NCBI GenBank assembly: GCA_040220235.1
Contig: JAVJTO010000064.1
Source: Coleofasciculus sp. B1-GNL1-01
GTDB taxonomy: Bacteria; Cyanobacteriota; Cyanobacteriia; Cyanobacteriales; Coleofasciculaceae
Length of the DNA stretch: 64,000 nt
Direction: 5' to 3' (one strand)
Position numbers and translations under genes: made by a program
Notes under the pieces: model-generated
Told to the model about the DNA's origin: nothing
The model's database searches: none
What the model saw: only the letters and a program-made list of their open reading frames with translations
Shown: positions 4,013-56,584 of the stretch, piece by piece
Numbering within the stretch: position 1 is the first letter of the stretch
Layout of the letters: each line of letters starts with the position of its first letter

Positions 4013-4864
4013 TTAACCTAAACACAATTGAGGGGGCGTCTCGGTGGGCAAGATAAACGTCGGCTGAGTATCAAACCACGTTTTTGGCGGAAACGGCGAA
4101 TTTGGATATCCCACTCGTAACAAACACAGACCCTTTGCTGGCGCTGAATATTTGATCCGCTCTCGTTGTTGATTCACCCACAGTTGAGTAAACTCCTGGG
4201 GATCAAGCTTGCCCCGCCCTACCTCCACCAGCATGCCGACGAGTAGCCGCACCATGCCGTATAAAAATCCATCCGCCTGAATTTCAATATGAATAAATGA
4301 ACCATTCCGGTAACAGTGGGTGTCCTGAACCGTGACCCAGGAATGCTTCCGTGACGAGTTGGCGCGATGGAACGCTGCTAGGTGGTGTTTGCCCCGCAGT
4401 GGATTCAGTGCTTCCTGAATCCGATGTTCATCCAAGGGAGCGTGATAGTAATGCCAACTAAACGGTCGCACAAATAGGTTGGGACAAGCATCTGTATAGA
4501 TACTGTACCGATACCGACGCCAAATCGCCGAAAAGCGAGCATGCCAATTGGCGGGGACAGGGGCTGATGCCCGAATCAGGATATCCTCCGGTAGTCGGCT
4601 ATTGAGCATCGGCATCCACCGCTCCCCCGGAATCGGACGGCTGCTATTAAAATGGGCGACTTGGGCAGCGGCATGAACTCCTGTATCAGTACGCCCCGCC
4701 CCGTGTAAGGTTACAGGTTTTCCTTCGACGGTGGACAGAACTTGCTCAATATCCGCTTGTACCGTGCGATGGTGAGGCTGTCGTTGCCAACCATAGAACT
4801 TTGTACCCAGGTATTGAATCACCAGAGCAATGCGTTGAGTTGGCTTAGCCTCGCACTCGGACAT
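4013..4864 (-). CDS. truA: tRNA pseudouridine(38-40) synthase
   Basis: YLGTKFYGWQRQ, GAGRTDTGVHA, HARFSA, FLYGMVR. Confidence 0.97.
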   Translation of the reverse strand: MSECEAKPTQRIALVIQYLGTKFYGWQRQPHHRTVQADIEQVLSTVEGKPVTLHGAGRTDTGVHAAAQVAHFNSSRPIPGERWMPMLNSRLPEDILIRASAPVPANWHARFSAIWRRYRYSIYTDACPNLFVRPFSWHYYHAPLDEHRIQEALNPLRGKHHLAAFHRANSSRKHSWVTVQDTHCYRNGSFIHIEIQADGFLYGMVRLLVGMLVEVGRGKLDPQEFTQLWVNQQRERIKYSAPAKGLCLLRVGYPNSPFPPKTWFDTQPTFILPTETPPQLCLG

Positions 4865-4873
4865 GACTTGAGT

Positions 4874-5224
4874 TCACACCAGCTCGATAATTGCCATTTC
4901 CGCATTGTCCCCACGACGGCGCAGGGTTCTGAGTACGCGAGTATACCCACCGTTACGATTGCCATAGCGATCATTCACCCCTTCAAACAAGGCATGAACT
5001 AACTGCTTGTCGTAAATATAACCCAAGGCTTGACGGCGAGAGGCTAGGGAGCCATCTTTTGCCAAGGTGATCATTTTTTCCACTTGGGAACGCACAGCTT
5101 TTGCCCGCGCTTTGGTGGTGGTGACTCGACCATGACGAATCAACTCCGTAGCTAAGCTTCTGAGCAGCGCTCGACGCTGGTCGGCTGGTTTTCCCAGTTT
5201 GGGTACGCGACGACGATGACGCAT
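4874..5224 (-). CDS. rplQ: 50S ribosomal protein L17
   Basis: [11 protein letters not shown]...RNGGYTR...[14 protein letters not shown]. Confidence 0.99.
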
Positions 5225-5315
5225 TTTCTTTTCTTCCTCTACAATCCCACAACAATGAAAACTTTTTCAATCGAATGGCTAATCGAGTTGACGATTAGCC
5301 ATTGAGTCTCAATCC

Positions 5316-6263
5316 TTAAGTTGGTTTAGCCGATTTTTCGTGGGGCAATGTAATCCCCAAGCGTTTTTGCAAGGCATCGATGACTTCTTCGGCAGACTTT
5401 TGACCAAAGTTCTTGATTTCGAGCAGATCCTCCTGGCTATAATCTAGTAAATCAGCAACGGAGTTAATTTGCGCTCGCTTGAGGCAGTTATACGCCCGCA
5501 CCGACAGTTGCAGTTCTTCAATCGGAATTTGGCTGGTTGGATCTTCATCTTCAGGACGACCCACAGGCTCTGGCTTCAGCTCGATATCTTTCAGGGGATT
5601 GAATAAATCCACCAGAATATTAGCGGCTTGACTCAGTGCTTCCTGGGGTGACACGCTGCCATTGGTCCAAACATCTAAAATTAAGCGGTCTTTTTCCAGG
5701 GAACCGTCAATCCGAGTATCCTCGACGCTGTAGTTGACCTTGGTCACTGGCATGAATACGGCGTCAAGTTGCAGGAAATCGACTGAAGATGTTTCATCAC
5801 GACCCCGTTCTACAGAGCGATATCCTTTGCCTCTTTCGATACGGAACTCCATTTCCAGTTTGGCGCCGTCGGCTAGGGTGGCGATATACTGACCCGGATC
5901 AACAAATTCTACGTCCGACGGTAGGTCAAACTGAGCCGATCGCACGGTTGAGGGTCCAGTGATCATGACTCGACCAATATGGGGTCCGGGCGTATAACTT
6001 TTGAGGACGACTTCCTTCATATTCAGGAGAATTTCTAAGACATCCTCTCTGATTCCCTCAATCGTGGCAAACTCATGATTGACTCCAGCAATCCGGACTG
6101 CAGTAATTGCTGTCCCTTCTAGGTTAGACAGGAGAACCCTTCTCAGGGCGTTGCCAACTGTTGTACCTTGACCGCGTTCTAGAGGTTCTAGGACAAATTT
6201 GCTATATTGACTTTGATTCTTTAGTGTTTTGGATTCTACGCACTCAATCTGAAACTGCGCCAC
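5316..6263 (-). CDS. rpoA: RNA polymerase alpha subunit
   Basis: EPLERGQGTTVGNALRRVLLS, LSVRAYNCLKRA; GTG start at 6263 after AAGGAGG. Confidence 0.98.
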   Translation of the reverse strand: MAQFQIECVESKTLKNQSQYSKFVLEPLERGQGTTVGNALRRVLLSNLEGTAITAVRIAGVNHEFATIEGIREDVLEILLNMKEVVLKSYTPGPHIGRVMITGPSTVRSAQFDLPSDVEFVDPGQYIATLADGAKLEMEFRIERGKGYRSVERGRDETSSVDFLQLDAVFMPVTKVNYSVEDTRIDGSLEKDRLILDVWTNGSVSPQEALSQAANILVDLFNPLKDIELKPEPVGRPEDEDPTSQIPIEELQLSVRAYNCLKRAQINSVADLLDYSQEDLLEIKNFGQKSAEEVIDALQKRLGITLPHEKSAKPT

Positions 6264-6517
6264 GGAGTGACCTCCCTCCTTTAATTCATAGGAACCCATC
6301 AAAAGCACCAAGCGAGTACTTTTGAATTTTTGTTGCGCCTAACCCACAATTTGGTACAAGTGGCACTAAGCAAAGTATTAGTGGTTGGCATAATTCGCTC
6401 GATGCTGACACTTGATTTTGTTGTCGAGTCGAGACGGATGCGGGGTAAACCGATTTACAGGTTTTCAATCCAACTCTGGGTTTAACCTCCCCAATTCCCC
6501 TTCCCAATTTCCCGATC

Positions 6518-6910
6518 CTAGACGCGGCGTCGTTTCGGGGGACGGCAACCATTATGAGGAATTGGCGTGACATCCCGAATTAGGGTAATTTCTAGTCCTG
6601 CCCCTTGTAGGGCGCGAATAGCCGTTTCTCGACCTGCACCCGGACCGCTAACCATTACCTCTATTTGACGCATTCCTTGGTCTATCGCTCGACGGGCGGC
6701 GTTATCGGCAGCGGTTTGAGCGGCAAAGGGGGTGCCTTTCTTAGCTCCCTTAAACCCACTTGATCCCGCCGATGCCCAGGAAACCACATCACCTCGCGTG
6801 TCAGAAATGGTGACGATGGTATTGTTGAAAGTGGACTGGATGAATGCCATTCCATTGGGAACGTTTCGTTTCTGCTTTTTTGTACCAGTTTTTTTAGTTG
6901 GTCGCGGCAT
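6518..6910 (-). CDS. rpsK: 30S ribosomal protein S11
   Basis: [35 protein letters not shown]. Confidence 0.99.
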
Positions 6911-6959
6911 ATCGCTTTAGTTGGCTATCTTAGTGATGGGTGTGAACTGAATAAGAGTG

Positions 6960-7343
6960 TTACTTCTTCGCGGGTGCTTTTTTCTTCCCGGCAACGGCAA
7001 TACGTCTACCCCGGCGGGTACGGGCATTGGTGCGGGTGCGTTGACCGCGCACAGGTAACCCTTGGCGATGACGACGCCCGCGATAGGTGCCAATATCAAC
7101 AAGGCGCTTGATATTCATGGCTTCCCAGCGCCTTAAGTCTCCCTCGACTTGATAGTCGCCCTCGACCACTGATCGCAGGGTGGCTACGTCAGCATCGCTT
7201 AAATCCTTGACGCGGATATCTGGATTAATACCCGTTTTGGTAAGAATTTCTTTGGAGCGAGATAGACCAATTCCGTAGATGTAGGTTAGACCAATTTCTA
7301 TTCGTTTATCGCGAGGTAGGTCTACACTGGCAATTCTTGCCAC
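6960..7343 (-). CDS. rpsM: 30S ribosomal protein S13
   Basis: [42 protein letters not shown]. Confidence 0.99.
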
Positions 7344-7403
7344 GGTATTTTTCTCCCTTTTGCTGGTTTTGTGCTACAAATGAGTCTTATAGAGTCTGCT
7401 GGA

Positions 7404-7517
7404 TTACCCCTGACGTTGTTTGTGCTTGGGGTTTGGACAAATAACCATTACTCGACCCCGGCGTCGAATAACGCGACATTTTTCGCAAATTTTGCGGACG
7501 GATGCTCTAACCTTCAT
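7404..7517 (-). CDS. rpmJ: 50S ribosomal protein L36 (below the ORF-track size cutoff)
   Basis: Translated by hand: [37 protein letters not shown]. Confidence 0.97.
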
Positions 7518-7604
7518 GGTTTTTTTAGTTACAACGCAAGCACATTATCATATCATTTTTTGGTTTTCGCGTCAAATAACTCCCGAAACCAACTCTACCG
7601 ATTT

Positions 7605-7829
7605 TTATTTTTTGCGAAGTCGGTAGGTGATTCGCCCCTTGCTCAAGTCATAAGGGGTCAGTTCAACTTTGACGCGATCGCCCGGTAAGATTTTGATGTA
7701 GTTACGGCGAATTTTGCCAGAAATATGGGCAAGGACGTTGAAGCCATTATCCAAATCAACCCGAAACATGGCGTTCGGCAAGGATTCGGTTACCGTCCCT
7801 TCCATTTCAATTAAGTCTTGTTTAGCCAA
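7605..7829 (-). CDS. infA: Translation initiation factor IF-1
   Basis: TTG start; [27 protein letters not shown]. Confidence 0.98.
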
Positions 7830-8043
7830 TTTTGTCGTTCCTCAATACAATTGGTCACTAATTCCCCTCCACACAGATAGAGATTTGTCCAGGGAGTGTT
7901 ATGTTAACTTATGTTATCAAAATCCTCCCCCAAAGAGCCTGTCCCAATCAAGGGAAGCCTTAGAAATAGTAACGACTTACCCTAGAGGAGAACATCCCTC
8001 AAAAGTGAGACGGCGTTCGTTTTCCGGTTTGAGCATGGATGAC

Positions 8044-8598
8044 TTAACTCGACATCACCTGCTTGAGAGAATCCGTAACCTCCTCCATTGGTCTATCCCC
8101 ATCAATCTCACGTAAGATTGAGCGATCGCGGTAAAACTCAATCACCGGTCCAGTCTGTTGGCGGTAAACGTCTAGGCGTCGCCGAATCGTCTGCTCATTA
8201 TCATCTTGGCGTCCCCGGCAGAGTAACCGATTCAGGATTGATTCATCGGTGACATCCAAATAAATGGCATAATCGCACTGCTGATCGAGATCCTGAAGCA
8301 GATTCTCCAGAAAAGCCGCTTGGCTAACATTACGCGGAAATCCATCCAAAATCCAACCCCCTTGAGTATCAGGTTGTTTGAGGCGATCGCGAATCAGATC
8401 CAGAATCAATTCATCTGGCACCAACTCGCCACCATCCATATAAGACTGCGCCTTTTGTCCGAGGGATGTAGATGCGGCGGTCGCACTCCGTAGAATATCC
8501 CCGGTAGATATGTGAGGAATCTGATAAAGCTGAGCGATATGCTGAGCTTGCGTTCCTTTGCCTGCTCCTGGTGGTCCTAAAAAAACTAATCGTGTCAT
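8044..8598 (-). CDS. adk: Adenylate kinase (short-lid type)
   Basis: [23 protein letters not shown]. Confidence 0.98.
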
Positions 8599-8603
8599 TG
8601 GTT

Positions 8604-8652
8604 ATTTGTCATTTGTCCTTTGTCATTTGTCATTCGTCCTTTGTCCTTTGTC
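8604..8652. repeat. STRR-type heptamer tandem repeat (TTTGTCA/TTTGTCC)
   Basis: Same family near 13657-13690 and 18126-18172. Confidence 0.8.
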
Positions 8653-8755
8653 AATTTGATGTCTGCTCAAGTCCAGCTTTGAATTATCGAGACATCCCAT
8701 TTGGGTTTAATCAACGATGAACAAAGGACAAGTAACCAATGACATAGCCAAAACT

Positions 8756-10102
8756 TTACTGCTTGACCATACCCTCGTAACGCTGTGAAATCACATACGT
8801 TTGAACTTGTTTCGCCGTGTCAATTGCCACACCGACCAAAATCAGTAACGAGGTAGCGCCTAGCCCTCTAAACGTGGTCACTCCCGTCGCACTTTCGACA
8901 GCCGTTGGCACAACCGCCACCAGTCCCAGGAAAATGGCACCCAAAAATGTTAACCGATTCAGCACTCGCTCAACATAGTCGCTTGTGGCTTTACCTGGAC
9001 GAATTCCCGGAATACTCGCTCCCATTTTCTTCAAATTCTGCGACATATCAACCGGATTCACGATCAACGACGCATAGAAATAGCTGAAAAAGAGAATTAA
9101 CACCAGATAAACCAGTACATACAGCCACGGCGTCGGACCATTCGGGCTAATATACAGTGCTACCTGATTTACCCCTTGCATGAGCGACCCTAAAAAGCCT
9201 TCCCCCGTGCCACCACGAGCAAAGCCAGCCAGAGACGTGGGCAGAATCAAAACGGCTGAGGCAAAGATAATCGGCATTACCCCACCTTGGTTCAGTCGTA
9301 GCGGCAGATAACTCGTCCGTTCCCGATAGAGGCGACGCCCAACTTGGCGTCTTGCCGAAATAATCGGAATCCGGCGTGTTCCCTCCTGAACAAAGACAAT
9401 CCCCACAATCATCACCAGGAAAACCAGGAGCAAAATGACCACCTTACCTGCCATTTCTCGCCCCCCCGTCTGTGCCAATTCAATCGTTTGACCCAATGTC
9501 CGGGGCAGAACTGCCACAATATTGACAAAAATCAACAAGGATGCTCCATTACCAATCCCGCGTTCGGTAATCAGTTCCGAAATCCACATGACAAACATTG
9601 AGCCAGCCGTGATGGCTAGCACAGTTTCCACAAAGAACAGAGTTCCGGGATTTGTGGCAAATTGGCTGGCAAATATTGCCAAACCCACACTTTGCAATAT
9701 CGCCCAACCGAGGGCGACATAACGGGTAATTTGAGAAATCTTTCGACGTCCAGCTTCCCCTTCATTCTTCTGCAAATTTTCCAGCGTAGGAATAGCTGCC
9801 GTCAGCAACTGCAAGATAATCGACGCATTAATATAGGGCAAGATTCCCAGGGCAAAAATCCCTAAAGCCGAGAACCCTCCCCCAGAGAAAAAATCTAAAA
9901 TGCCAGCGATGGGAACGTTTCCACTTTGGATAGCGGTGGCAAGTTGTTCCCGATCAATTCCCGGTACAGGTAAAAAGACACCAAACCGGGCTAGGATCAA
10001 CAAACCGATGGTCAAAAGCAACCGACCTCTAAGACCGGCAGCTTGTGCCATCTGCATAAATGTTTCTTGAGCCGTTGGAGCTTTGTCTCGACTGACGACC
10101 AT
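8756..10102 (-). CDS. secY: Preprotein translocase subunit SecY
   Basis: IFALGILPYINASII, ITERGIGNGASL, GVMPIIFAS, IPGIRPG. Confidence 0.99.
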   Translation of the reverse strand: MVVSRDKAPTAQETFMQMAQAAGLRGRLLLTIGLLILARFGVFLPVPGIDREQLATAIQSGNVPIAGILDFFSGGGFSALGIFALGILPYINASIILQLLTAAIPTLENLQKNEGEAGRRKISQITRYVALGWAILQSVGLAIFASQFATNPGTLFFVETVLAITAGSMFVMWISELITERGIGNGASLLIFVNIVAVLPRTLGQTIELAQTGGREMAGKVVILLLVFLVMIVGIVFVQEGTRRIPIISARRQVGRRLYRERTSYLPLRLNQGGVMPIIFASAVLILPTSLAGFARGGTGEGFLGSLMQGVNQVALYISPNGPTPWLYVLVYLVLILFFSYFYASLIVNPVDMSQNLKKMGASIPGIRPGKATSDYVERVLNRLTFLGAIFLGLVAVVPTAVESATGVTTFRGLGATSLLILVGVAIDTAKQVQTYVISQRYEGMVKQ

Positions 10103-10343
10103 AAAGGGGTACCTCCAGATGACACAGTGTTGACCTCTCCCTGGTATAAATAAACAGGGATTCTAATAGGATACTTCGGGGCTACTTAAAATCGCGTCCC
10201 TTCGGATCTTATTAGAGTTCCAGATCAATAACCTGGATGGCGCGGTCAAAAACGCCCTACAGACCTTGGTTAGATCAAGACCTAACTGTATCTCTACTTT
10301 TCTCACACTATCAGCAGCACCATTACCCGCCAACGCTAAAACG

Positions 10344-10793
10344 TTACGCCTCAATCACTTCACAACTCCCGCCAGCCGCCTCAATTTTTTGGCGAGCGCT
10401 AGCCGTGAAGGCAGCAGCTTTAACAGTTAGCGATACAGTCAACTCCCCGTCGCCCAGAATTTTCAGCGGTCCGTCGTTAGTGGTGACGATACCCGTTTCC
10501 ATCAGTGACGGTAACGTCACCTCTGTATTGGCAGGGAGCGATGCCAACTTACCTACATTTATCGTAGTGTAATGTTTGGGATTAATCACCGTAAAGTGTT
10601 TTAGCTTAGGTAAGCGGCGGTACAAAGGCATCTGACCCCCTTCAAACCCCGGTCTTGTACCCCGACCCGATCGCGACTTTTGTCCGCGCATGCCAAAGCC
10701 ACAGCTAGCTCCTTGACCGGCGCTAATCCCGCGACCAACACGACGACGACGTTTCTTTGCACCGTCTTGGGGTGCTACAGTATGGATTCTCAT
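10344..10793 (-). CDS. rplO: 50S ribosomal protein L15
   Basis: [26 protein letters not shown]. Confidence 0.99.
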
Positions 10794-10873
10794 AATTTAG
10801 ATCGTGAAACTCAAAACTCAGACGTGCCATGGCACGTCTCTACATTTAAAACTCAAAACTCAACACACTATCT

Positions 10874-11395
10874 TTAGACATAGAGCTTCTCAATCTCAAC
10901 CCCGCGTTCTTGCGCCACTTCCTTGAATGTCCGGAGCGCATCTAGGGCATTGATAGCAGCTCTAGCATTATTTAAGGGATTATTAGACCCCAGTTGCTTG
11001 GCTAAGATATTACGAACCCCTGCCAATTCCAACACCGTCCGTACTGCGCCACCAGCAATTACACCTGTACCGGGTGCAGCAGGTCTTACCATGACCTTGG
11101 CACCAACAGCCGCTCCATTAGAGGGATGAGGAATGGAATTCGACTTGGTTAACGGAACATCGATGACTTGTTTTTTGGCATCGACAACCCCTTTGCGAAC
11201 AGCGCCAATCACATCACTGGCTTTACCCACACCAACGCCTACCTGACCGCGCTCATTGCCAACCACAACGATCGCCCGGAAACTTAATTTTTTACCGCCT
11301 TTGACCACCTTGCTGACTCGACGGATTTGAATAACCCGCTCTTGCCATGTGCTGTCTTTTTCTTTGGCGCGGTTACCTTTGCGACGATTTGCCAT
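10874..11395 (-). CDS. rpsE: 30S ribosomal protein S5
   Basis: [21 protein letters not shown]. Confidence 0.99.
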
Positions 11396-11420
11396 AATTT
11401 AAATTGTGCTTTACTTACTT

Positions 11421-11783
11421 CTAGAAGTCTAACCCAGCTTCACGCGCCGCTTCTGCCAAAGCTTTCACGCGACCATGGTACAGGTTTCCTCCCCGGTCAA
11501 AAACAACCTGAGATATACCTTTTTCCAACGCTCGCTGGGCAATTAATTGACCCACTTTAACCGAGGCGTCACAGGTTGCACCTGATTTTACCTCTGACTT
11601 CAGTCCAGGTTCTAGAGTGGAAGCCGCCGCTAGGGTGTGTTGCTGATGATCATCAATAACCTGCACATAAATGTGCTGATTTGACCGAAAGACGGCTAAT
11701 CTTGGACGTTCAGCACTACCTTGGACTGTCCGACGCACGCGCCGATGTCTACGGCGGACTGATTCTTTACGAGTAAGTTTCAT
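11421..11783 (-). CDS. rplR: 50S ribosomal protein L18
   Basis: [28 protein letters not shown]. Confidence 0.99.
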
Positions 11784-11827
11784 GGTTTTCCTTGGGGATC
11801 TACTACTGGTACTCGTGTGTTTGACAT
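11780..11827 (-). pseudogene. IscB (RRXRR/PLMP domain) N-terminal stub, [15 protein letters not shown]
   Basis: Translated by hand; resembles the IscB N-terminus RVPVVDxxGKP(LMP); its TGA overlaps the rplR ATG (ATGA). Confidence 0.75.
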
Positions 11828-12042
11828 TTGGTATAACCCATAAATGTTTTAGTCTCTTCGCCCAACTGCATTAGCGTGTCTTGGCTTTACCCAACGCTCT
11901 GACCACTAGAGCCTAGAGTGGTACAGACTAGAGAAGCATCTGTACGTCCGTAACTAATGCCGTCTCAACGGGCTATTCAACACTTGCCTCACCGGAAGTG
12001 GTTCCGGCAATCCCCACCCGTCTTTACAGTGGGGTAGTTGAA
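11828..12042 (-). ncRNA. HEARO/omegaRNA-like scaffold of an IS200/IS605 IscB element
   Basis: Minus strand starts TTCAACTACCCCAC...GTGGGG hairpin, then GAATAGCC, GATGCTTCTCTAGTC and GTTGGGCGAAGAGAC, directly upstream of the IscB stub. Confidence 0.75.
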
Positions 12043-12044
12043 GG

Positions 12045-12584
12045 TTACTTCTTACCTGCTTTACCAGCTTTACGTCTAATCATTTCACCGGCATAGCGAA
12101 TGCCTTTCCCTTTATAAACTTCAGGGGGACGCACCGCACGAATTTTAGCCGCTGTGTTGCCGACGATTTCTTTATTGATCCCGCTAACAATCACGTTAGT
12201 ATTCCCTTCAACCGCGAGCTGCACGTCTTCAGGAGGGACAATTTCCACGGGTTGACTGTATCCGACATTCAGGATTAAGTTACGTCCTTGAACCTGGGCA
12301 CGATAACCGACCCCTTGGATGGCTAGACGTCTCTCAAAGCCTTTGGACACCCCTTCAACCATGTTGGCAACTAGGGTGCGAGACAATCCGTGGCGCTGAC
12401 GGGCAAGTTTGGATTCATCCCGCCGCTGCACTTGGATGGTTTCTCCTTCTTGTTCAACGGTGACTTGTTTCGGTAGAACTCGTTGGAGTTCTCCTTTGGG
12501 TCCTTTGACGGTAACCTGTTGACCTTCAATGGTCACGGTCACTTTATTGGGAATTGTTATCGGGCGTTTGCCAATACGCGACAT
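12045..12584 (-). CDS. rplF: 50S ribosomal protein L6
   Basis: [28 protein letters not shown]. Confidence 0.99.
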
Positions 12585-12647
12585 GATTTTATACTCCTTA
12601 TCCGGGCAAAAGAATTCAAAAGAGCCGAGGTGCTGATTTGAGCCGTG

Positions 12648-13049
12648 CTACCAGATGTAACACAGCACTTCACCACCGATTCCTTGTCGTCTGGCTTCCC
12701 GGTCAGTCATGATCCCACTGGACGTGGAAATAATCGCAATACCAATACCACCCAAAACTCGCGGTAATTCCTTGCGATTTTTGTAAACTCTGAGACCGGG
12801 TTTGCTCACCCGTTTCAGGACTCGGATAATGGGTTGGCGCGTTTTTCCCTTGTATTTCAACGAAATAACTAAGTATTTTTTGACGCCTTCCCCAGCTTCT
12901 TCAAACTCGGCAATAAAGCCTTCCTCTTTCAAGACCTGAGCAATTGCACGGGTCATTTTTGTTGCTGGGACATTTGTGGTTTGATGCCGTACCAAACACG
13001 CATTCCGAATGCGGGTCAGCATATCTGCAATTGTGTCGTTTGCCGCCAT
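12648..13049 (-). CDS. rpsH: 30S ribosomal protein S8
   Basis: [32 protein letters not shown]. Confidence 0.99.
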
Positions 13050-13073
13050 TAGTTCCTTCCTATGCTTACAGGC

Positions 13074-13619
13074 TTATTTCTCCCGGAAAGGCATTCCCAT
13101 CTCTTTGAGTAAAGCGCGACCCTCTTCATCGGTGTTTGCGGTGGTGATAATTGAAATATCCATGCCACGAATTTGATCGATACTGTCGTAGTCTATTTCC
13201 GGGAAAATCAGTTGTTCTCGGATGCCTAAGGTGTAGTTACCGCGACCGTCGAAACTGCGAGGGCTGATCCCGCGAAAGTCACGAATTCGCGGCAGGGCTA
13301 AGCTAATTAGGCGATCCAAAAACGAGTACATCCGTTCTGATCGCAGGGTCACCATGACCCCCACAGGCATTCCTTCACGAATTTTAAATCCCGCGATCGC
13401 TTTTTTGGCACGGGTGACCACAGGTTTTTGACCGGTAATGATCGCCAGTTCACTCAATGAGGATTCCAGGGCTTTTGCATTTTGAGATGCTTCTCCTAAT
13501 CCTCGGTTGACGGTGATTTTTGTCACACGCGGGACTTGATGGATGTTTGTATACCCAAACTGTTCTTTAAGTTTGGGAACAATAGTGTCTTGATAGAGTG
13601 TTTTCAATCGGTCAGACAT
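13074..13619 (-). CDS. rplE: 50S ribosomal protein L5
   Basis: [22 protein letters not shown]. Confidence 0.99.
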
Positions 13620-13724
13620 GGTGGTTATCCTTTTTCCCTGGGCTTGGTCAGGGTAATTTGTCCTTTGTCATTTGTCATTCGTCCTTTGTTTTTTTTGATA
13701 ACTCCAAAGGACTTGACGAAAAGA

Positions 13725-14075
13725 TTAGTCAATGATTTCACCCGTTTTCTTCAGCATTCGTACCTTGCGTCCCTCTTCAGTCAAGGTGTAACAGATACGA
13801 CTTGCCACTTTTTGCTTTTCCGAATACAGCATGACATTGGAACTGTGAATCGGGGATTCAATGGTAGCAATTTGACCTGTTTCCCCTTCTTGCTGAGGCT
13901 TAACGTGTTTGGTTTTAATATTCACGCCTTTGACGACAACCTTACTGTCTTTCGGTAAGGTTTGCAGAATTTCTCCGACCTTACCTTTATCGTGACCACT
14001 AATCACTTGCACTGTGTCGCCTTTTTTGACGTGCATTTTGTAACGCACTGGCGCTTTTTTTGTCGGTTTAGCCAT
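13725..14075 (-). CDS. rplX: 50S ribosomal protein L24
   Basis: [25 protein letters not shown]. Confidence 0.99.
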
Positions 14076-14443
14076 CAGAGTACCTCCGGCGCTAAGGACA
14101 CAATTTTCGTGTAATTTCTTTCCCGTAGTTCTCGCGCTACTGGACCAAATACACGAGTTCCTCTGGGATTACCTTCCGGGTTAATAATCACAGCCGCATT
14201 ATCGTCAAAACGAATACTCATGCCGCTTTCCCGGCGCAATCCTTTACGAGTGCGGACAATAACAGCCCGAACCACATCGGACTTTTTAATTGCCATGTTA
14301 GGAATCGCATCCTTCACCACAGCAATAATCACATCACCCACACTACCGTAACGTCGATTTCCAGAACCGACGACGCGAATGCACATTACTTTACGCGCAC
14401 CGCTATTGTCAGCCACATTTAAATAGGTTTGTTGTTGAATCAT
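14075..14443 (-). CDS. rplN: 50S ribosomal protein L14
   Basis: [26 protein letters not shown]. Confidence 0.99.
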
Positions 14444-14586
14444 CTGATTTGTACTCTTGATTCAGAGTTATGAGTTATGAGGCAAGTCGGAGTGGATTTC
14501 ACGATTATCGTTTCTCACCGATTCGTGAACATTTAAAACCCAAAACCAAGTTCCTTCGAGGGTGGCGAAGGGTTAATACGCCTTAA

Positions 14587-14835
14587 TTAAATTGAGGCAC
14601 TATTGAGAATATCCGTAACCTGCCAGCGTTTCGTGCGACTCAGAGGTCGGGTTTCTTGAATGCGGACGCGATCGCCTTCTTGGCAGCGATTTTCTTCATC
14701 GTGTGCCTTGTATCGCTTGGTATTGACAACGATTTTGCCGTACTTCGGGTGGGGCGATCGGTTTTCGACAGCAACAACCACGGTTTTATCCATTTTGTTG
14801 CTCACAACTAAACCAACTCGTTCTTTAACTGCCAT
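14587..14835 (-). CDS. rpsQ: 30S ribosomal protein S17
   Basis: [23 protein letters not shown]. Confidence 0.99.
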
Positions 14836-14841
14836 CGCGGT

Positions 14842-15207
14842 TTACTCCTCTTTGTTTTCCTCAGATGGTGAGGATTCAGGGGTGACTTCAGTTGTCTGTT
14901 CACTCACTGACTCTTGCTCATCGGCTTTAACCGCCTCTTCCGCTTCAGCTTGAGCGGGTTGAGTCGTGGCTGAATCGCTCACGGATTGGGATGTCTCTTC
15001 AGACAGGGCTGCCAATTGCCGCTCTCGCGCAATCGTCATCATCTGAGCAATGCGATGTTTGAGATGCTTAAACTGATGGGGTTTTTCCAAACGGCGGGTG
15101 GCTTGTTGCAACCGCAGTTCAAATAGCTCACGCTTGGCAGCTAAAATTTCATCCGCTAACTCTTGATCACTTAAGGTTCTGGCGTCGTCTATTTTGGGCA
15201 AAGGCAT
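14842..15207 (-). CDS. rpmC: 50S ribosomal protein L29 with acidic C-terminal extension
   Basis: KRELFELRLQQAT..LEKPHQF..LKHRIAQMMT; located between rplP and rpsQ. Confidence 0.96.
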   Translation of the reverse strand: MPLPKIDDARTLSDQELADEILAAKRELFELRLQQATRRLEKPHQFKHLKHRIAQMMTIARERQLAALSEETSQSVSDSATTQPAQAEAEEAVKADEQESVSEQTTEVTPESSPSEENKEE

Positions 15208-15212
15208 AATAC

Positions 15213-15626
15213 TTATTCCCCTTCACGAGTAACGAACTTTGTTTTAATGGGAAATTTGTTAGCCGCTAGACGCATGGCTTCGCGGGCAAGGGGTTCGGGA
15301 ACACCAGCGATTTCATAGAGAATTCGACCAGGTTTAACCACAGCTACCCAATATTCAGGGGACCCTTTCCCGGAACCCATACGAGTTTCCGCCGGACGCA
15401 TGGTCACAGGTTTATCTGGAAACACGCGAATCCAGATTTTTCCGCCCCGGCGAATATAGCGAGTCATGGCTCGACGACCGGCTTCAATTTGACGAGCTGT
15501 AATCCAGGACGGTTCAGTCGCTTGCAAGCCAAAGTCCCCAAAATTGAGGGAGTTGCCGCGAGTCGCTTGACCTCTCATCCGCCCGCGATGCTGTTTGCGG
15601 AATTTTGTTCGTTTAGGACTTAACAT
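15213..15626 (-). CDS. rplP: 50S ribosomal protein L16
   Basis: [26 protein letters not shown]. Confidence 0.99.
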
Positions 15627-15708
15627 AGTGATTTTTGTCCGTTATCAGTTAGTCGTGATTGTTTCTCCTTTACCTGTTGTCACCTGCTTCAGGGCAAAAG
15701 ACAAAAGA

Positions 15709-16434
15709 CTATTCATTAGAACGATCTTCAAATTGTTGGCGACGCCGTTGTTGACGACGACGGGGTTGAGCGGTGGGGGGTGGGGCGACTTCTTCGGTAG
15801 ACGGAATGATTTCGCCTTTAAAGATCCAGACTTTCACACCGAGAATCCCGTAGATGGTGCTAGCGGTACGGTAGGAATAATCAATATCCGCTCGCAGGGT
15901 ATGCAGGGGAACTCGACCTTCACGAGTCCACTCTGTTCGAGCAATTTCAGCACCATTCAGGCGACCACTCACTTGCACTTTGATGCCTTGGACATCTGCC
16001 CGTTGCGCCCGTTGAATCGCTTGACGGACAACCCGACGGAAGGACACCCGGCGTTCGAGCTGTTGGGCAATGTACTCAGCAATTAGCTCCGCATCAGCAT
16101 CCACCCGGGCGACTTCAATGACATTGATGCGAATTTGACGATTGCTCCCCAAAAGGTCTTGGAGACCTGTACGCAAGGATTCAATGCCACTACCGCCACG
16201 ACCAACCACGACACCAGGTCGCGCTGTATGAACTTCTAAATCAATTTGATCGGCTTTGCGTTCGATCCGGATCATCGAAATTCCGGCGTTACTCAGATTT
16301 TTTTCGACGTATTGTCGGATGATGTAGTCCTCTTGCAGGACTTCTGGGTAACGCTTGGTATCAGCAAACCAACGGGAGCGATGTTCTTGAGTGACACCTA
16401 AGCGAAAACCAATTGGATGAATTTTTTGTCCCAC
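15709..16434 (-). CDS. rpsC: 30S ribosomal protein S3
   Basis: GTG start [26 protein letters not shown]. Confidence 0.98.
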
Positions 16435-16494
16435 GAAACCTTCCTTTACTTTATGTTTGTCCGTTGTCAATCGTGCATCATTGATGACGATTAA

Positions 16495-16857
16495 CTAGTC
16501 CTCAACTTGGGGTGAAACCGCCACCGTTATATGACAGGTTGGCTTGCGAATCTGATAAGCTCGACCTTGTGCTCTGGGGCGATAGCGCCTAAAGCTGGGT
16601 CCCATATCAGCCGAAGCATGGCTAATCACCAAGCTGGTTGGATCTAGACCCGCATTATGTTCGGCATTCGCCACGGCGGATCGTAGGACTTTCAGCACGG
16701 GTTCGCACGCCCGGTACGGCATAAATTCCAGAATAATCAGGGCTTCGCGGTAGGAACGTCCGCGAATCTGATCAAGAACCCGCCTAACTTTCAAGGGGGA
16801 CATGCGAATGTAACGTGCGATCGCTTTGGTTTCTACTGTTGTATCTATCGTCGCCAT
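16495..16857 (-). CDS. rplV: 50S ribosomal protein L22
   Basis: [26 protein letters not shown]. Confidence 0.99.
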
Positions 16858-16931
16858 AGTTTGTGTGATCTCTAATAGGCAAGAGCGAGATAAAAGCTGC
16901 CAACTCCAAGGGACAGCATCGTGCGTGCCGA

Positions 16932-17207
16932 TTAACGCGCCCGGCGATCGCTTTTAGAATGACCGCGAAAGGTACGAGTTGGGGCAAATTCGCCCAGTTT
17001 ATGCCCCACCATCTGCTCATTGATAAAAACCGGCACATGGGTTCTGCCATTATGAACGGCGATGGTATGACCCACCATTTGCGGCAGAATGGTTGAGGCG
17101 CGTGACCAGGTTTTAATTACCTGCTTTTCGCCTTTAGTATTCAAGGCTTCAATCTTACTCAGAAGACTGTCGGCAATAAATGGACCTTTTTTTAATGAAC
17201 GACCCAT
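16932..17207 (-). CDS. rpsS: 30S ribosomal protein S19
   Basis: [27 protein letters not shown]. Confidence 0.99.
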
Positions 17208-17247
17208 AATCTCAATATGGTAAATGGTCAGTGATTGGATGCAAGCG

Positions 17248-18111
17248 TTAAGCTTGACGCCCACCCCGTCCTCGCTTCGAGGATTTGCGCCGACGGCGGA
17301 CAACTAAAGCCGTGCTTTGTTTTTTCGGCTTCCGAGTTTTAGCTCCCAAAGTGGGTTTACCCCATGGGGTGACTGGACCTGATCGACCAATAGGCGCTCT
17401 GCCTTCACCACCACCATGGGGGTGATCAACCGGGTTCATGACGCTTCCTCTGACTTTAGGACGGCGTCCCAAGCGACGGCTACGACCGGCTTTTCCTAAA
17501 CTGAGGTTACGAGCTTCACTATTCCCAACCTGTCCAATCGTGGCATAGCAATTTCGCTGCACCATGCGAACTTCCGTCGAGGGTAGCTTCAGCGTGACAT
17601 ACTTCCCTTCTTTGGCAACGACTTGGGCACTCACCCCAGCCGCACGGACGATTTGACCGCCTTTTCCGGGTACCAGTTCTACGTTATGCACGCTGGTTCC
17701 TAGAGGGATATTGCTTAGAGGTAAAGCATTACCCACCTCAATCGGAGCATCGGGTCCAGAAATCACAGAAGCGCCTACTTCTAAACCAGCCGGATGCAAA
17801 ATATAGCGTTTTTCGCCATCCTGATAGTAAAGCAGGGCAATCCGGGCGTTCCGGTTAGGGTCATATTCAATGGATGCTACTTTAGCCGGAATATTGTGCT
17901 TGTTCCGGTGAAAGTCGATGATCCGGTAGAGGCGCTTGTGTCCACCTCCCCGACGCCGACTGGTGATCACCCCCCGATTATTGCGACCTTTGGGACGGTG
18001 ATTAGACGTGGTTAGTGATTTTTCTGGTTCACTGCGGGTAATCTCCGCAAAGTCTGAGAGTGTAACCTGACGGGTACTTGGGGTATACGGTCTATAACTA
18101 CGAGTTCCCAT
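17248..18111 (-). CDS. rplB: 50S ribosomal protein L2
   Basis: [34 protein letters not shown]. Confidence 0.99.
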
Positions 18112-18268
18112 AAAACTATCCTTTATTTGTCATTTGTCATTTGTCATTTGTCATTCGTCATTCGTCATTTGTCTCTGAAAACTCGGTTGGGGCTGGTTGA
18201 GTTGCATCTGGGTTGTGTAATAAAAGATAGTTGTGAAACCCGACCTTACACAATCAACCTTGTTTTAT

Positions 18269-18574
18269 TTATACGTCTGGGAACAACGTAATGGAGTCTT
18301 CAGGAGCTAAGGTGACAATTGCCCGTTTATATTGGGGCTTGTACCCAATGAATCTGCCGACGCGACGCTTTCGGCGCGGTGGCATTAAGGTGTTAACGCC
18401 TGTAACTTTGACATCAAAAAGGCTTTCTATTGCCGCTTTGATTTCAGGTTTAGTGGCTTTGGGAACAACATCAAAGACGTATTTGTTATCTTCTAAAAGC
18501 AACGTTGCTTTTTCAGTCACAATTGGGCGCAGCACCATATCTGCCAGGTCGCGGGGGTTAGTTGATTTAGTCAC
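18269..18574 (-). CDS. rplW: 50S ribosomal protein L23
   Basis: [32 protein letters not shown] start. Confidence 0.97.
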
Positions 18575-19199
18575 TGTAAACCTCCTGAATTTTGGCAAGG
18601 GCTGTATTGGTGGTGACAATTTTGTCAGCGTTCAATACATCGTAGACATTTAAGCTATCCGCATAAATTAGCTTGATGCTTGGCACATTACGGGCAGACA
18701 AATAAACCTGTTGTGCGGGTTGAGGTAAAATCAAAAGGACTTTTTGATTGGGATCAATTCCCCAACGGGCGATCGCTTCCATCAAGTCTTTGGTTTTAGG
18801 ACGAGGCAGTTGATCGGCAAACTCTTCGACGACAATCAGATCCTCCGCTCGACTTTGCAATGCGGTTCGCAGTGCCAAGCGCCGCTCTTTGCGGTTCATC
18901 TTTAGGTTGTAGTCTCTGGGCTTGGGACCAAAGATAATGCCCCCTCCGCGCCACAAGGGTGAGCGGTTTGTACCCGCCCGAGCGCGACCTGTTCCTTTTT
19001 GCCGCCACGGTTTGCGTCCGCCGCCTCTAACTTCGGCGCGGGTTTTCGTGGATGCGGTTCCTTGACGAGCATTGGTCATTTGTCGAACTAATGCTCGATG
19101 AACAATGTGAGACGCACTATCTTCTTTGGCTACTTTCAGCTCCAGGGTGGCTTGTCCCACTTCTTCCCCTTGCCAGTTTCGCACTATACAATCGACCAT
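18567..19199 (-). CDS. rplD: 50S ribosomal protein L4
   Basis: [32 protein letters not shown]. Confidence 0.99.
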
Positions 19200-19279
19200 A
19201 GTTTTTAGTCCTTAGTCTTTAGTCTGGTTGTTCAAGATTCATCGGTGGGCATCAACAATCAGCCATGAACCCTAAATAA

Positions 19280-55800: not shown

Positions 55801-56584
55801 ACGCCTGTGCCAAGTCTAGAGCTTGTTTCTGCTCCTCCGAGGACATCAGCATTAGAGGTCTACATTTATTCAACAACTCCAGCGCCTCGGCTGGACTCAT
55901 CATGTCCAAGTCATAGCGAATGGCTCCCCGCACGGGAGCTTCACGGGTGGTGACTAAAACCCGACAGTTTGACCCTCCCACCTGGAACGGTTCGATATCT
56001 TCCGATTTCCAAGCATCATCGACAACCAATAAACTACGTTTGTCATAAAGTAGGGTTCTCAGATGCGTCGAAGCGGCTTGGGGAGTGGTGGGTTTATAGT
56101 CAAAGTCTCCTAATGCGTGAATCCAAGTCGCCAGAAATGAGAGGATATCCGGTTGTTGACCCAGTGTTACCCAGAGTATCCCATCGGAAAAGCGTTGATG
56201 AATATCGGCGTCATGAGCCAGTGCTGTGGCTAACACGGATTTGCCAATACCACCCAGTCCATAGATAGCACTCACCACTAACGTTCCCGGTGTGGTTTCT
56301 CCCGTTTCTAGGAGTAATTTTTTCAGTTCCCGACGCGGTTGGGAGCGCTCGACAAAGTTGGGGGGTAATGGGGGAGCCTGAAAGGGTTTGCCTACCCATT
56401 TAGGTTTAGTGCCAAAATTAACAGTCCCATAATTCTGGAAGCTGTTTTGATTTCCATGAACCTCACCAACCGCCGTACCAATTGTGTTTTGATCACCGGA
56501 ACTACCGATATGACCTTGATTATCAACACTGCCAACATCGTCACCAAAGGTGTATTGTTTTATCTGGCTTTCATGCTCACTCAT
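52847..56584 (-). CDS. NB-ARC (STAND) NLR-like protein with short N-terminal low-complexity motif and ~19-20 helical repeats
   Basis: FVER, GLGGIGKS Walker A, LLVVDDAW Walker B, LVTTR, LGYLPLAI, IHDLM; C-terminal 31-32-aa repeats. Confidence 0.92.
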   Translation of the reverse strand: MSEHESQIKQYTFGDDVGSVDNQGHIGSSGDQNTIGTAVGEVHGNQNSFQNYGTVNFGTKPKWVGKPFQAPPLPPNFVERSQPRRELKKLLLETGETTPGTLVVSAIYGLGGIGKSVLATALAHDADIHQRFSDGILWVTLGQQPDILSFLATWIHALGDFDYKPTTPQAASTHLRTLLYDKRSLLVVDDAWKSEDIEPFQVGGSNCRVLVTTREAPVRGAIRYDLDMMSPAEALELLNKCRPLMLMSSEEQKQALDLAQALGYLPLAIELAAAQIAEGVEWWELLEDFQAEVARLETLDDSAAGSASCEETRKRLSLNASFNLSLRQLSPEQLQQFAWLGVLPEDAAIGQQTAAILWQVKPRQAGAILRTLRSKALLLSGAVQPGEKPTYRIHDLMHDRAKELLTDSVNPTQSEELPGLGLRLKEAHAAFLERYRAKTENGQWYTLSNDGYIHNYLSWHLEQAGQSQELHQLLQASTPQGRNAWYEACDRLGKLGNFVTDVARAWRLAEQMYEEKPSESIGLQCRYALIVASLNSLAENIPAELMAALVEKQIWTPEQGLAYAQQKQEPSSRAEALGKIAPHLPETLLPQALEAALAIADENFRVLALSDIFLHLPENLRLKVLAALLAIQNEQNQAFVLSRITPYLPENLLDKALEVSLAINNEQNRAFALSQMIPHLPKNLLAKVLEASHAMQDERNRFGILSRIAPYFPKILPESLEAALAIQDEQNRALALSQIAPHLPESLPKALEAALAIQDEQNRALALSQIAPHLPESLFSKALEAALAIQDERNRPLALSQIPPRLPENLLAKALEASIAIQDEYFRVSALSQIAPHLPKSLLAKALKAALAIQGEGHRVSALSRIAPHLPESLPKALEAALAIPYEHNRVSALSQIAPHLPKNLLAKALKASRAIQDELNRALALSRIALHLPESLFPEALEAALAIPDQPNRALALSRITPHLPKNLLAEALEASRAIQDEPNRALALSGIALHLPESLFPEALEATLAIPDQPNRALALSRIAPHLPESLLAKALEAALAISGGFFPGLDLCRIAPHLPENLLPKALEAARVIPDEYFRISALIKIASRLPKILPEALEAARVIDEYHRASALSEIAPHFPEILPEALEAAWAIPDERHRAQVLSEIVPHFPEILPEALEAARTIPDAYYRAEALSRLLPNLKPSYFDFSLWKESLDVLAYRIRRNLLEDISALSPVIIALGGKEALAATARAIQEVGRQWK
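53030..54860 (-). repeat. Intragenic 93-96-nt tandem repeats encoding ALEAALAIxDExxRxxALSxIAPHLPExL
   Basis: Visible at both DNA and protein level. Confidence 0.9.

What the first reader, a model, noticed from the sequence alone, without database searches (positions are those of the whole stretch)
11780..12044. IscB omegaRNA (HEARO-like) remnant inside the spc ribosomal operon, with an IscB stub coupled to rplR
Seen: rplF and rplR are separated by 261 bp. On the sense strand, TAA-CC is followed by TTCAACTACCCCAC...GTGGGG and further HEARO-like blocks, then a 15-codon [18 protein letters not shown] whose TGA overlaps the rplR ATG and whose sequence supplies AAGGA upstream of that ATG. Removing the insert gives ...AAGAAGTAACC|ATGAAA. 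Established: omegaRNA guides come from the DNA flanking the element end, IscB begins with a PLMP domain, and ATGA is a reported IscB 3' TAM. Inference: an IscB element inserted at an ATGA target (the rplR start) and lost nearly all of iscB, keeping a stub that may preserve rplR translation. The omegaRNA would be transcribed with a highly expressed operon and carry a guide matching the rplF 3' end, so it could be loaded by IscB in trans or be domesticated.
Basis: partly seen in the sequence, partly recalled or inferred. Interest (0 to 1): 0.8.

Follow-up and report, generated by a model that had tools for sequence, protein, structure and literature searches.

The report
Stranded IsrB guide RNA before rplR
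A broken jumping gene left only its guide-RNA scaffold and the first 15 codons of its DNA-nicking enzyme between two essential ribosomal protein genes, and this immobile scrap appears to have passed recently between three related cyanobacterial species.

Summary
The 259-bp insert (11784-12042, minus strand) is a one-ended remnant of an IsrB (ISC1) IS200/IS605 element, not IscB. It matches HEARO end to end below the cut-off (57.9 bits, E 3.8e-11). Copies 79-90% identical elsewhere run on into an HNH-less ORF that matches DtIsrB. The element entered at N|ATGA, here the rplR start. It lost isrB after codon 15 and its far transposon end, so it should be immobile. The stub leaves AAGGA and an ATGA stop/start overlap at rplR. 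The insert is in 3 of 9 genomes of the genus, with one shared breakpoint and 1-2 substitutions in 261 bp, against 12-13% at fourfold sites. The carriers are not a clade (AU p=0.002). An intact IsrB element shared at one site by two other species shows the same near-identity, synonymous sites included. So recent lateral spread fits better than domestication. Both pseudoknots are intact, and the guide would match the empty allele beside an ATGA TAM, so IsrB-assisted homing is my lead mechanism (0.4). No cognate IsrB was found in the six close assemblies, and there is no evidence of activity.

The parts
12045..12584 (-). rplF (uL6); its last 18 nt plus the CC spacer would be the guide
   Evidence: ORF; gene name from sequence motifs and operon order (recalled)
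12043..12062 (-). predicted 20-nt guide, host-derived, 5' of the scaffold
   Evidence: Guide outside the element per Meers 2023 and Hirano 2022; compared with empty alleles. The length is assumed from DtIsrB.
12039..12042 (-). TTCA, the retained element terminus (omegaRNA end); not an NTG TAM, so the filled allele should not be cut
   Evidence: Same terminus in donors and in other IsrB elements of the genus, fixed by filled/empty pairs
11846..12042 (-). IsrB omegaRNA scaffold (HEARO-like)
   Evidence: RF02033 57.9 bits, E 3.8e-11; 89-90% to copies in G004/G007 and 79% to G024; 58 of 60 hand-drawn pairs form
12012..12034 (-). SL1-like terminal hairpin; G005 breaks one pair here
   Evidence: SL1 is dispensable for nicking in DtIsrB; helix naming is my analogy
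11902..12002 (-). adaptor-type pseudoknot, 12002-11997 with 11907-11902, 6 of 6 pairs
   Evidence: only 52.9% paired across 20 family members on the MAFFT alignment, so family-wide support is weak
11853..11934 (-). nexus-type pseudoknot, 11934-11930 with 11857-11853, 5 of 5 pairs
   Evidence: 100% paired in 20 sequences, 2 pairs with changes on both sides
11780..11827 (-). isrB stub, 15 codons ([15 protein letters not shown]), stop overlapping the rplR start
   Evidence: 14 of 15 residues as in the G004/G007 ORF, which continues LMPT
11789..11793 (-). AAGGA, Shine-Dalgarno-like, inside the stub, 5 nt before the rplR ATG; present in the donors too
11780..11783 (-). ATGA: insertion target/TAM, rplR start, and deletion junction where the far transposon end is missing
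   Evidence: Donor far ends finish with a hairpin then G/A|ATGA, absent here; 18 of 21 family sites are N|NTGA
11421..11783 (-). rplR (uL18), intact
   Evidence: ORF; 95-98% DNA identity among the close species

Best explanation
Step 1 (shown): an IsrB-encoding IS200/IS605 element inserted at N|ATGA, the rplR start, in the same orientation as the spc operon. Step 2 (shown as a structure, inferred as an event): one deletion removed isrB from codon 16 through the far transposon end, leaving the omegaRNA and a 15-codon stub that TnpA should not be able to excise. Step 3 (inferred): the allele is tolerated in an essential operon because no terminator-like site was found in it and the stub puts AAGGA and an ATGA stop/start overlap at rplR, replacing the native coupling to rplF. 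Step 4 (well supported): this one allele moved recently between three species. Step 5 (inferred, the committed mechanism): operon read-through makes an omegaRNA whose guide is the rplF 3' end. An IsrB supplied in trans nicks empty TAACC|ATGA alleles but not filled ones, and recombinational repair copies the insert with very short flanks, as a protein-less homing allele. A variant is that the full-length ancestor homed and the deletion swept afterwards. I put steps 1-2 at about 0.95, step 4 at about 0.7 and the whole chain at 0.4.
For: IsrB identity: (E 7.6e-41 over residues 1-380 against 8DMB; IscB chains match only the N-terminal 190 residues or fewer). Target rule: 18 of 21 sites N|NTGA; cyanobacterial IsrBs use an NTG TAM (Hirano 2022). 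Recent spread: 1, 2 and 1 substitutions in 261 bp against 12.0-13.4% at fourfold sites (Fisher p about 1e-12). Only 2 changes at 65 sites that differ in family relatives, 12.2 expected, P 1.7e-4. Carrier monophyly is rejected on two data sets (AU 0.0019 and about 1e-63), and the three carrier pairs are the three most distant of 15. Control: an intact element at one site in G001 and G006 differs at 3 of 1443 bp and 2 of 182 fourfold sites against 11% in operon genes, with clean flanks of only 86 and 41 bp; G000 is empty there with a perfect 20-nt target plus ATGA. Two more shared-site elements: 1 of 421 and 5 of 276. The scaffold is intact in both pseudoknots. G000 has apparently intact IsrB ORFs and Y1 transposases. 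TnpA-independent homing is known for TnpB.
Against: No cognate IsrB: best full-length hits are 47-59% in G000 and five close genomes, and the 89-90% relatives in G004/G007 have internally deleted ORFs. Cross-loading is untested. No co-conversion signal: first flank differences among carriers lie 47-94 bp upstream and 29-51 bp downstream, like non-carrier pairs, which is also what vertical inheritance predicts. None of 27 empty alleles is a perfect target, which could be escape or mere spacer variability. IsrB only nicks, and the 2026 review lists homing evidence for TnpB and IscB, not IsrB. The intact control elements could have reached the same site by separate transpositions: near-identical IsrB ORFs also cross species at different sites (5 of the 7 pairs at 99.4% or more, among 302) and one site holds two different elements. 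Identity tracts of 340-410 bp occur elsewhere in the operon without any element. Trees are mosaic and rest on one contig.
Confidence: 0.4

Rival explanations
1. Same IsrB remnant, spread recently between species by ordinary homologous recombination (drift, hitch-hiking or a small advantage in rplR expression). The omegaRNA is inert and simply has not had time to decay.
For: Conflicting trees and 340-410 bp identity tracts show short interspecies exchange in this clade. No cognate IsrB. G000 holds two other one-ended omegaRNA-plus-stub remnants (17 and about 66 codons), so this is a recurring decay product.
Against: The same 259-bp heterology must have entered at least two species with homology arms now at most about 46-93 bp and 28-50 bp, which is inefficient without a break (own knowledge). 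The same near-identity recurs at 3 of 3 other shared-site IsrB elements found.
Confidence: 0.3
2. Domesticated RNA or leader: an old insertion, inherited vertically and held by purifying selection (for example IsrB binding that tunes rplR and downstream genes), and lost from G002, G003 and G006.
For: The insert is as conserved as second codon positions (3.3 changes expected, 2 seen); only the infA windows are as conserved (2 of 670 windows with 3 or fewer variable sites). All three variants fall in the first 60 nt, in SL1 or an unpaired linker (a post hoc reading). Flanks diverge normally up to the edges. In the operon tree the carriers branch first among the six, compatible with one gain and one loss.
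Against: Sites that vary freely among family relatives are also frozen. An intact control element shows the same near-identity at synonymous sites. The empty alleles (CA, CA, CCG) are not the precise-loss product CC, and the element lacks the end needed for excision. The tree from 24-44 kb does not recover this order.
Confidence: 0.2
3. The remnant derives from an IscB (HNH-bearing) element.
For: It hits the HEARO model, and the genome has true IscB elements.
Against: Its 73-90% relatives with a readable ORF all encode HNH-less IsrB-type proteins. The strong HEARO hits (91-154 bits) are separate elements; two of their ORFs carry HNH.
Confidence: 0.03
4. Assembly artefact, or an RNA-level excised (intron-like) insert.
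For: One RNA-library contig skips exactly 259 nt here (run X16).
Against: That contig matches the empty genome G002 at 39 of 40 listed sites and has the same 34 differences over 12044-13100. Single DNA contigs of runs X4 and X5 span the whole insert without gaps, and two other genomes carry it.
Confidence: 0.02

Closest known systems
IsrB / ISC1 elements of the IS200/IS605 superfamily (Kapitonov 2016, PMC4810608; Hirano 2022, PMC9581776)
   Same: omegaRNA upstream of an RVPV...PLMP ORF without HNH; N|ATGA target as for ISC1-1_MA; two pseudoknots; ISC1 families are already listed for Coleofasciculus chthonoplastes PCC 7420
   Different: The ORF ends at codon 15 and the far end is missing. The ISC1 families listed for that strain have TT|GG and TT|GA sites; I did not compare sequences with them (supplement not read).
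PATE-like and standalone omegaRNA elements (Meers 2023, 10.1101/2023.03.14.532601; standalone omegaRNAs cited in Hirano 2022)
   Same: An omegaRNA without its nuclease that would need a protein in trans
   Different: PATEs keep both ends and move by TnpA; this has one end, a translated-looking stub fused to a host start codon, and one breakpoint shared by three species.
OMEGA homing: restorative homing (Meers 2023) and the TnpA-independent TnpB drive in plasmids (10.1101/2025.02.20.638934; review PMC13565253)
   Same: The guide plus TAM would hit the empty allele and spare the filled one
   Different: Those cases use a double-strand nuclease encoded in cis, within one cell's replicons. Here a nickase in trans, a chromosomal core operon and several species are implied.
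HEARO RNA (Rfam RF02033)
   Same: Full-length covariance match
   Different: Below the gathering score, as are other IsrB-linked copies (45-57 bits); no HNH endonuclease follows.

Membership tests
IsrB (ISC1) element, derived from | omegaRNA 5' of the ORF starting at the element terminus | tested here: met
IsrB (ISC1) element, derived from | Cognate ORF with PLMP and split RuvC, no HNH | tested here: met
   Met by the nearest full-length relative (L065); the insert itself keeps 15 codons
IsrB (ISC1) element, derived from | Insertion 5' of an NTG(A) target without duplication | tested here: met
   ATGA follows; 18 of 21 family sites are N|NTGA; no empty allele with the exact CC spacer was found
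Intact mobile IS200/IS605 element or PATE | Both ends with subterminal hairpins | tested here: not met
   The far end seen in L063-L065 is absent from the window
Intact IsrB system | Full-length nickase encoded in cis | tested here: not met
   15-codon stub
IscB element | HNH domain inside RuvC in the cognate ORF | tested here: not met
   Pfam finds RRXRR only for L065; the same scan finds HNH in two true IscBs of G000
HEARO RF02033 | Score at or above gathering (83 bits) | tested here: not met
   57.9 bits
Functional omegaRNA | Adaptor and nexus pseudoknots intact | tested here: met
   6 of 6 and 5 of 5 pairs; the structure was drawn from the insert itself, and family covariation supports the nexus one only
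Functional omegaRNA | Expressed and processed as a discrete RNA | tested here: inconclusive
   One low-depth RNA-library contig bridges rplR and 66 nt of the insert; contigs show neither ends nor strand, and DNA may be present
Functional omegaRNA | Loads an IsrB and guides nicking | not testable with these tools
   Needs biochemistry; only non-cognate IsrBs were found
Homing allele | Non-vertical distribution with lower divergence than the host | tested here: met
Homing allele | Co-conversion of flanking markers | tested here: inconclusive
   No excess identity in the flanks; equally short clean flanks in the intact control
Domesticated ncRNA | Purifying selection under vertical descent, with variation at tolerant sites | tested here: not met
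   Monophyly rejected; tolerant sites frozen; only three genomes, so the power is limited

The most novel reading that the evidence does not exclude
An immobile, protein-less omegaRNA allele acts as a homing parasite of IsrB. It uses the ribosomal operon's transcription for its guide, borrows a nickase in trans, pays its way by giving rplR a ribosome-binding site and stop/start overlap, and converts the empty rplF-rplR junction across species boundaries. It would be natural evidence that IsrB nicks drive homing.
Probability: 0.3. Interest if true: 0.8.

Novelty: new variant of a known kind. Interest (0 to 1): 0.52.

Why it matters
What IsrB nickases do for their transposons is not demonstrated in the sources I read; homing evidence there is for TnpB and IscB. 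This locus gives a defined guide, TAM, filled and empty alleles and natural near-miss targets, so nick-driven homing and omegaRNA use in trans become directly testable. It also shows how an OMEGA insertion can survive at the start codon of an essential gene, and it warns that extreme conservation of an omegaRNA remnant need not mean domestication. If the RNA is inert, it is an ordinary decay product in an unusual place.

Tried and rejected
Rfam at gathering level: 0 hits in the window. Whole-RNA minimum free energy is no better than shuffles (z -0.66), as expected for a pseudoknotted RNA, so it was not used. Junction-pattern scans gave 44 metagenome and 33 genome loci; only 2 of 77 were the rplF junction, both Coleofasciculus records of the same genome collection, not counted as extra carriers. 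No match in viral contigs or phages; one 68% match on a Nostoc plasmid under an RRXRR gene: no vector found. Order-wide search: 6 of 401 genomes at E 1e-25 or better, three of them the carriers; only 2 candidates per genome were scored. Splicing was rejected. The lack of RNA cover over 11851-12053 in run X15 is one low-depth run and was not used. My HNH pattern missed even true IscBs and was discarded in favour of Pfam. The Shine-Dalgarno estimate gave -5.2 kcal/mol for the filled allele against -6.1 to -7.8 for five empty alleles (the anti-SD was recalled, since no 16S tail was found in the assembly), so a stronger RBS is not supported. One helix was mis-set and corrected. Flank identity gave no co-conversion signal. 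Earlier scan notes: nothing in 3 look-ups. No paper on such an insert in a ribosomal operon came up in the searches; the library lacks most subscription papers, including the original HEARO and IscB/IsrB reports as far as these searches showed.

Full report
OBSERVATION. rplF (12045-12584) and rplR (11421-11783) lie on the minus strand of an S10-spc-alpha operon, 261 bp apart (gene names recalled from sequence and order). After TAA-CC the insert starts TTCAAC at 12042. It matches Rfam HEARO over the whole model at 11846-12042 with 57.9 bits, E 3.8e-11, under the gathering score of 83. A 15-codon ORF at 11827-11780 ends in a TGA that overlaps the rplR ATG, with AAGGA 5 nt before that ATG. A consensus scan finds no promoter-like or terminator-like site on the operon strand in 11400-12700.

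NOT ANCESTRAL. Of 41 genomes searched, G000, G001 and G005 carry the insert at this site; that is 3 of 9 in the genus. Loci were fetched for 30 genomes, and the other 27 have 0-5 bp between the genes. DNA contigs of runs X4 and X5 span the insert without gaps. Two named Coleofasciculus records carry it; they belong to the same genome collection and are not counted again.

IT IS IsrB, NOT IscB. The same element lies elsewhere in G004 and G007 (89-90%) and G024 (79%). There the ORF continues past GKP into LMPT. The G024 ORF (399 aa) aligns over residues 1-380 with DtIsrB (8DMB, E 7.6e-41), IscB chains match only its N-terminal part, and Pfam finds RRXRR and no HNH; the same scan finds HNH in two real IscBs of G000. 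The G004/G007 ORFs are internally deleted. Of four further loci at 73-75%, two have an IsrB-type ORF and two end at a contig edge. Kapitonov 2016 (passages and section 9 read) describes these HNH-less ISC1 elements in cyanobacteria, with N|ATGA sites in Microcystis.

TARGET AND DELETION. Among 78 loci from five close genomes, a terminus was found in 47. At 21 distinct sites with a TTCA terminus that are empty in G000, 18 read N|NTGA, 11 of them ATGA. Of 13 ATG sites tested, 4 are the first ATG of an ORF of 80 codons or more, against 137 of 3000 random ATGA sites: landing on start codons is a family habit. Donor copies end in a hairpin followed by ATGA. That end is absent here: the sequence runs from codon 15 straight into the rplR ATG, sharing only AT with the donor. 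All three carriers have this breakpoint, so the allele arose once. TnpA excision relies on both ends (Meers 2023, passages), so it should be stranded (inference). G000 has two other one-ended omegaRNA-plus-stub copies, at sites where G003 holds the full element; the remnant type is thus not unique, but its place is unusual.

SCAFFOLD. With helices drawn by analogy to DtIsrB (Hirano 2022, section 6 and passages), the insert forms 58 of 60 pairs, G024 57, G004 54 and G007 53 (the structure came from the insert, so the count favours it). Both pseudoknots, required for nicking in DtIsrB, are complete. Across 20 family members S1, SL1, SL4 and the nexus pseudoknot are 90-100% paired with changes on both sides; the adaptor pseudoknot (53%) and S3 (30%) are not supported on that alignment.

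WHY SO CONSERVED. The carriers differ at 12.0-13.4% of fourfold sites in 17 operon genes and at 5.8-7.4% of other spacer sites, but at only 1, 2 and 1 of 261 insert sites, plus a 4-bp duplication in G005. This could be selection or youth. Three tests favour youth. (a) At 65 sites where family relatives differ, 12.2 changes are expected and 2 seen (P 1.7e-4). (b) Carrier monophyly is rejected on the operon (7251 columns, AU 0.0019) and on window 24-44 kb (5724 columns, about 1e-63), and on the latter the three carrier pairs are the most distant of 15; the two trees conflict, so the clade is mosaic. (c) An intact IsrB element at one site in G001 and G006 differs at 3 of 1443 bp and 2 of 182 fourfold sites against 182 of 1652 in operon genes, with clean flanks of 86 and 41 bp; two other shared-site elements differ at 1 of 421 and 5 of 276. 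Against this reading: the flanks show no co-conversion; the three variants sit in SL1 or an unpaired linker; the operon tree alone allows one gain and one loss; and intact controls could be repeat transpositions, since 5 of the 7 cross-genome ORF pairs at 99.4% or more lie at different sites. That last escape is closed for the rplF-rplR allele, which cannot transpose.

MECHANISM. Guides of this class are host sequence transcribed from outside the element, and elements are biased to the orientation of the upstream gene (Meers 2023). Here read-through from rplF would give a guide ending in the TAA-CC junction. An empty allele presents it next to ATGA, matching the NTG TAM of two cyanobacterial IsrBs; the filled allele presents TTCA. 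None of 27 empty alleles matches perfectly; G002 and G003 differ by one base next to the TAM, and G006 by a 1-bp shift and three nearby synonymous changes. G000 encodes several full-length IsrB ORFs at 47-56% to the cognate protein, with the RuvC motifs aligned in three I checked, and 13 Y1 transposase matches. No cognate IsrB was found in G000 or five close genomes. Homing without TnpA is shown for TnpB on plasmids (preprint passages; review section 6), not for IsrB. Cyanobacterial polyploidy would help such a drive (own knowledge). I commit to IsrB-assisted homing at 0.4, passive recombination at 0.3 and domestication at 0.2.

rplR TRANSLATION. The native junction couples rplR to the rplF stop 0-5 nt upstream. 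The stub substitutes AAGGA and an ATGA overlap. AAGGA was already in the donors, so the deletion end-point brought it into place; selection for that end-point is inferred. The predicted pairing is not stronger than in empty alleles, and the stub's own start has only a weak signal (-3.1), so whether the stub is translated is open.

EXPRESSION. One RNA-library contig, G001-like at 37 of 40 listed sites, bridges rplR and the last 66 nt of the insert; this is weak. The contig that skips 259 nt is from a G002-like empty strain.

VERDICT. A real, correctly located feature; an IsrB remnant of a known kind in a new configuration (one-ended, coupled to an essential start codon, shared across species). 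No matching report came up in eight literature searches. Supplements were not read; the ISC1 sequences in Kapitonov's supplement could show whether this family is already named. Interest 0.52.

Noticed in passing
L188:1277-2719 (G006) and L192:1277-2719 (G001); L191 (G003) with G000:C34; L220 (G003) with G000:C29: IsrB elements sit at identical sites in species 11-12% apart at fourfold sites yet are 98-99.8% identical; possible cross-species homing of IsrB elements in general.
   Followed up: partly
G000:C29 (L051 region) and G000:C34 near 56100-56530: Two more one-ended omegaRNA-plus-stub remnants (17 and about 66 codons); at C29 a second, 81% identical IsrB element lies about 100 bp downstream.
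   Followed up: partly
L005 (G006), equivalent of window 12043-12060: Three synonymous changes and an extra base fall inside the would-be guide target, with none in the preceding 150 bp against G000; possible target escape.
   Followed up: partly
G000:C69 near 12566 and L063:1484 (G004): The same genomic site holds different IsrB elements in two species, a hint of hot spots or replacement.
   Followed up: no
L066-L068 (G028); G000:C141:8615-8930: ORF-less two-ended omegaRNA mini-elements ending at ATGA; L067 sits directly before a leuB-like start (name recalled) and the C141 copy before a long ORF.
   Followed up: no
L201, L235, L227, L192 sites in G000 (C82, C84, C109, C34): IsrB elements often insert exactly at start codons: 4 of 13 ATG sites against 4.6% background.
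   Followed up: partly
window 8593-8656, 10819-10861, 18112-18177: Short dispersed repeats in operon spacers that vary in copy or presence among the species.
   Followed up: no
G029:C135 near 6805-6965 and G035:C1 near 1585377-1585452: Coordinates imply rplF-rplR spacers of roughly 70-85 bp in these two genomes; the sequence was not examined.
   Followed up: no
window 4700-19200 in six species: Identity tracts of 340-410 bp between various species pairs and conflicting trees point to frequent short interspecies recombination in ribosomal protein genes.
   Followed up: partly
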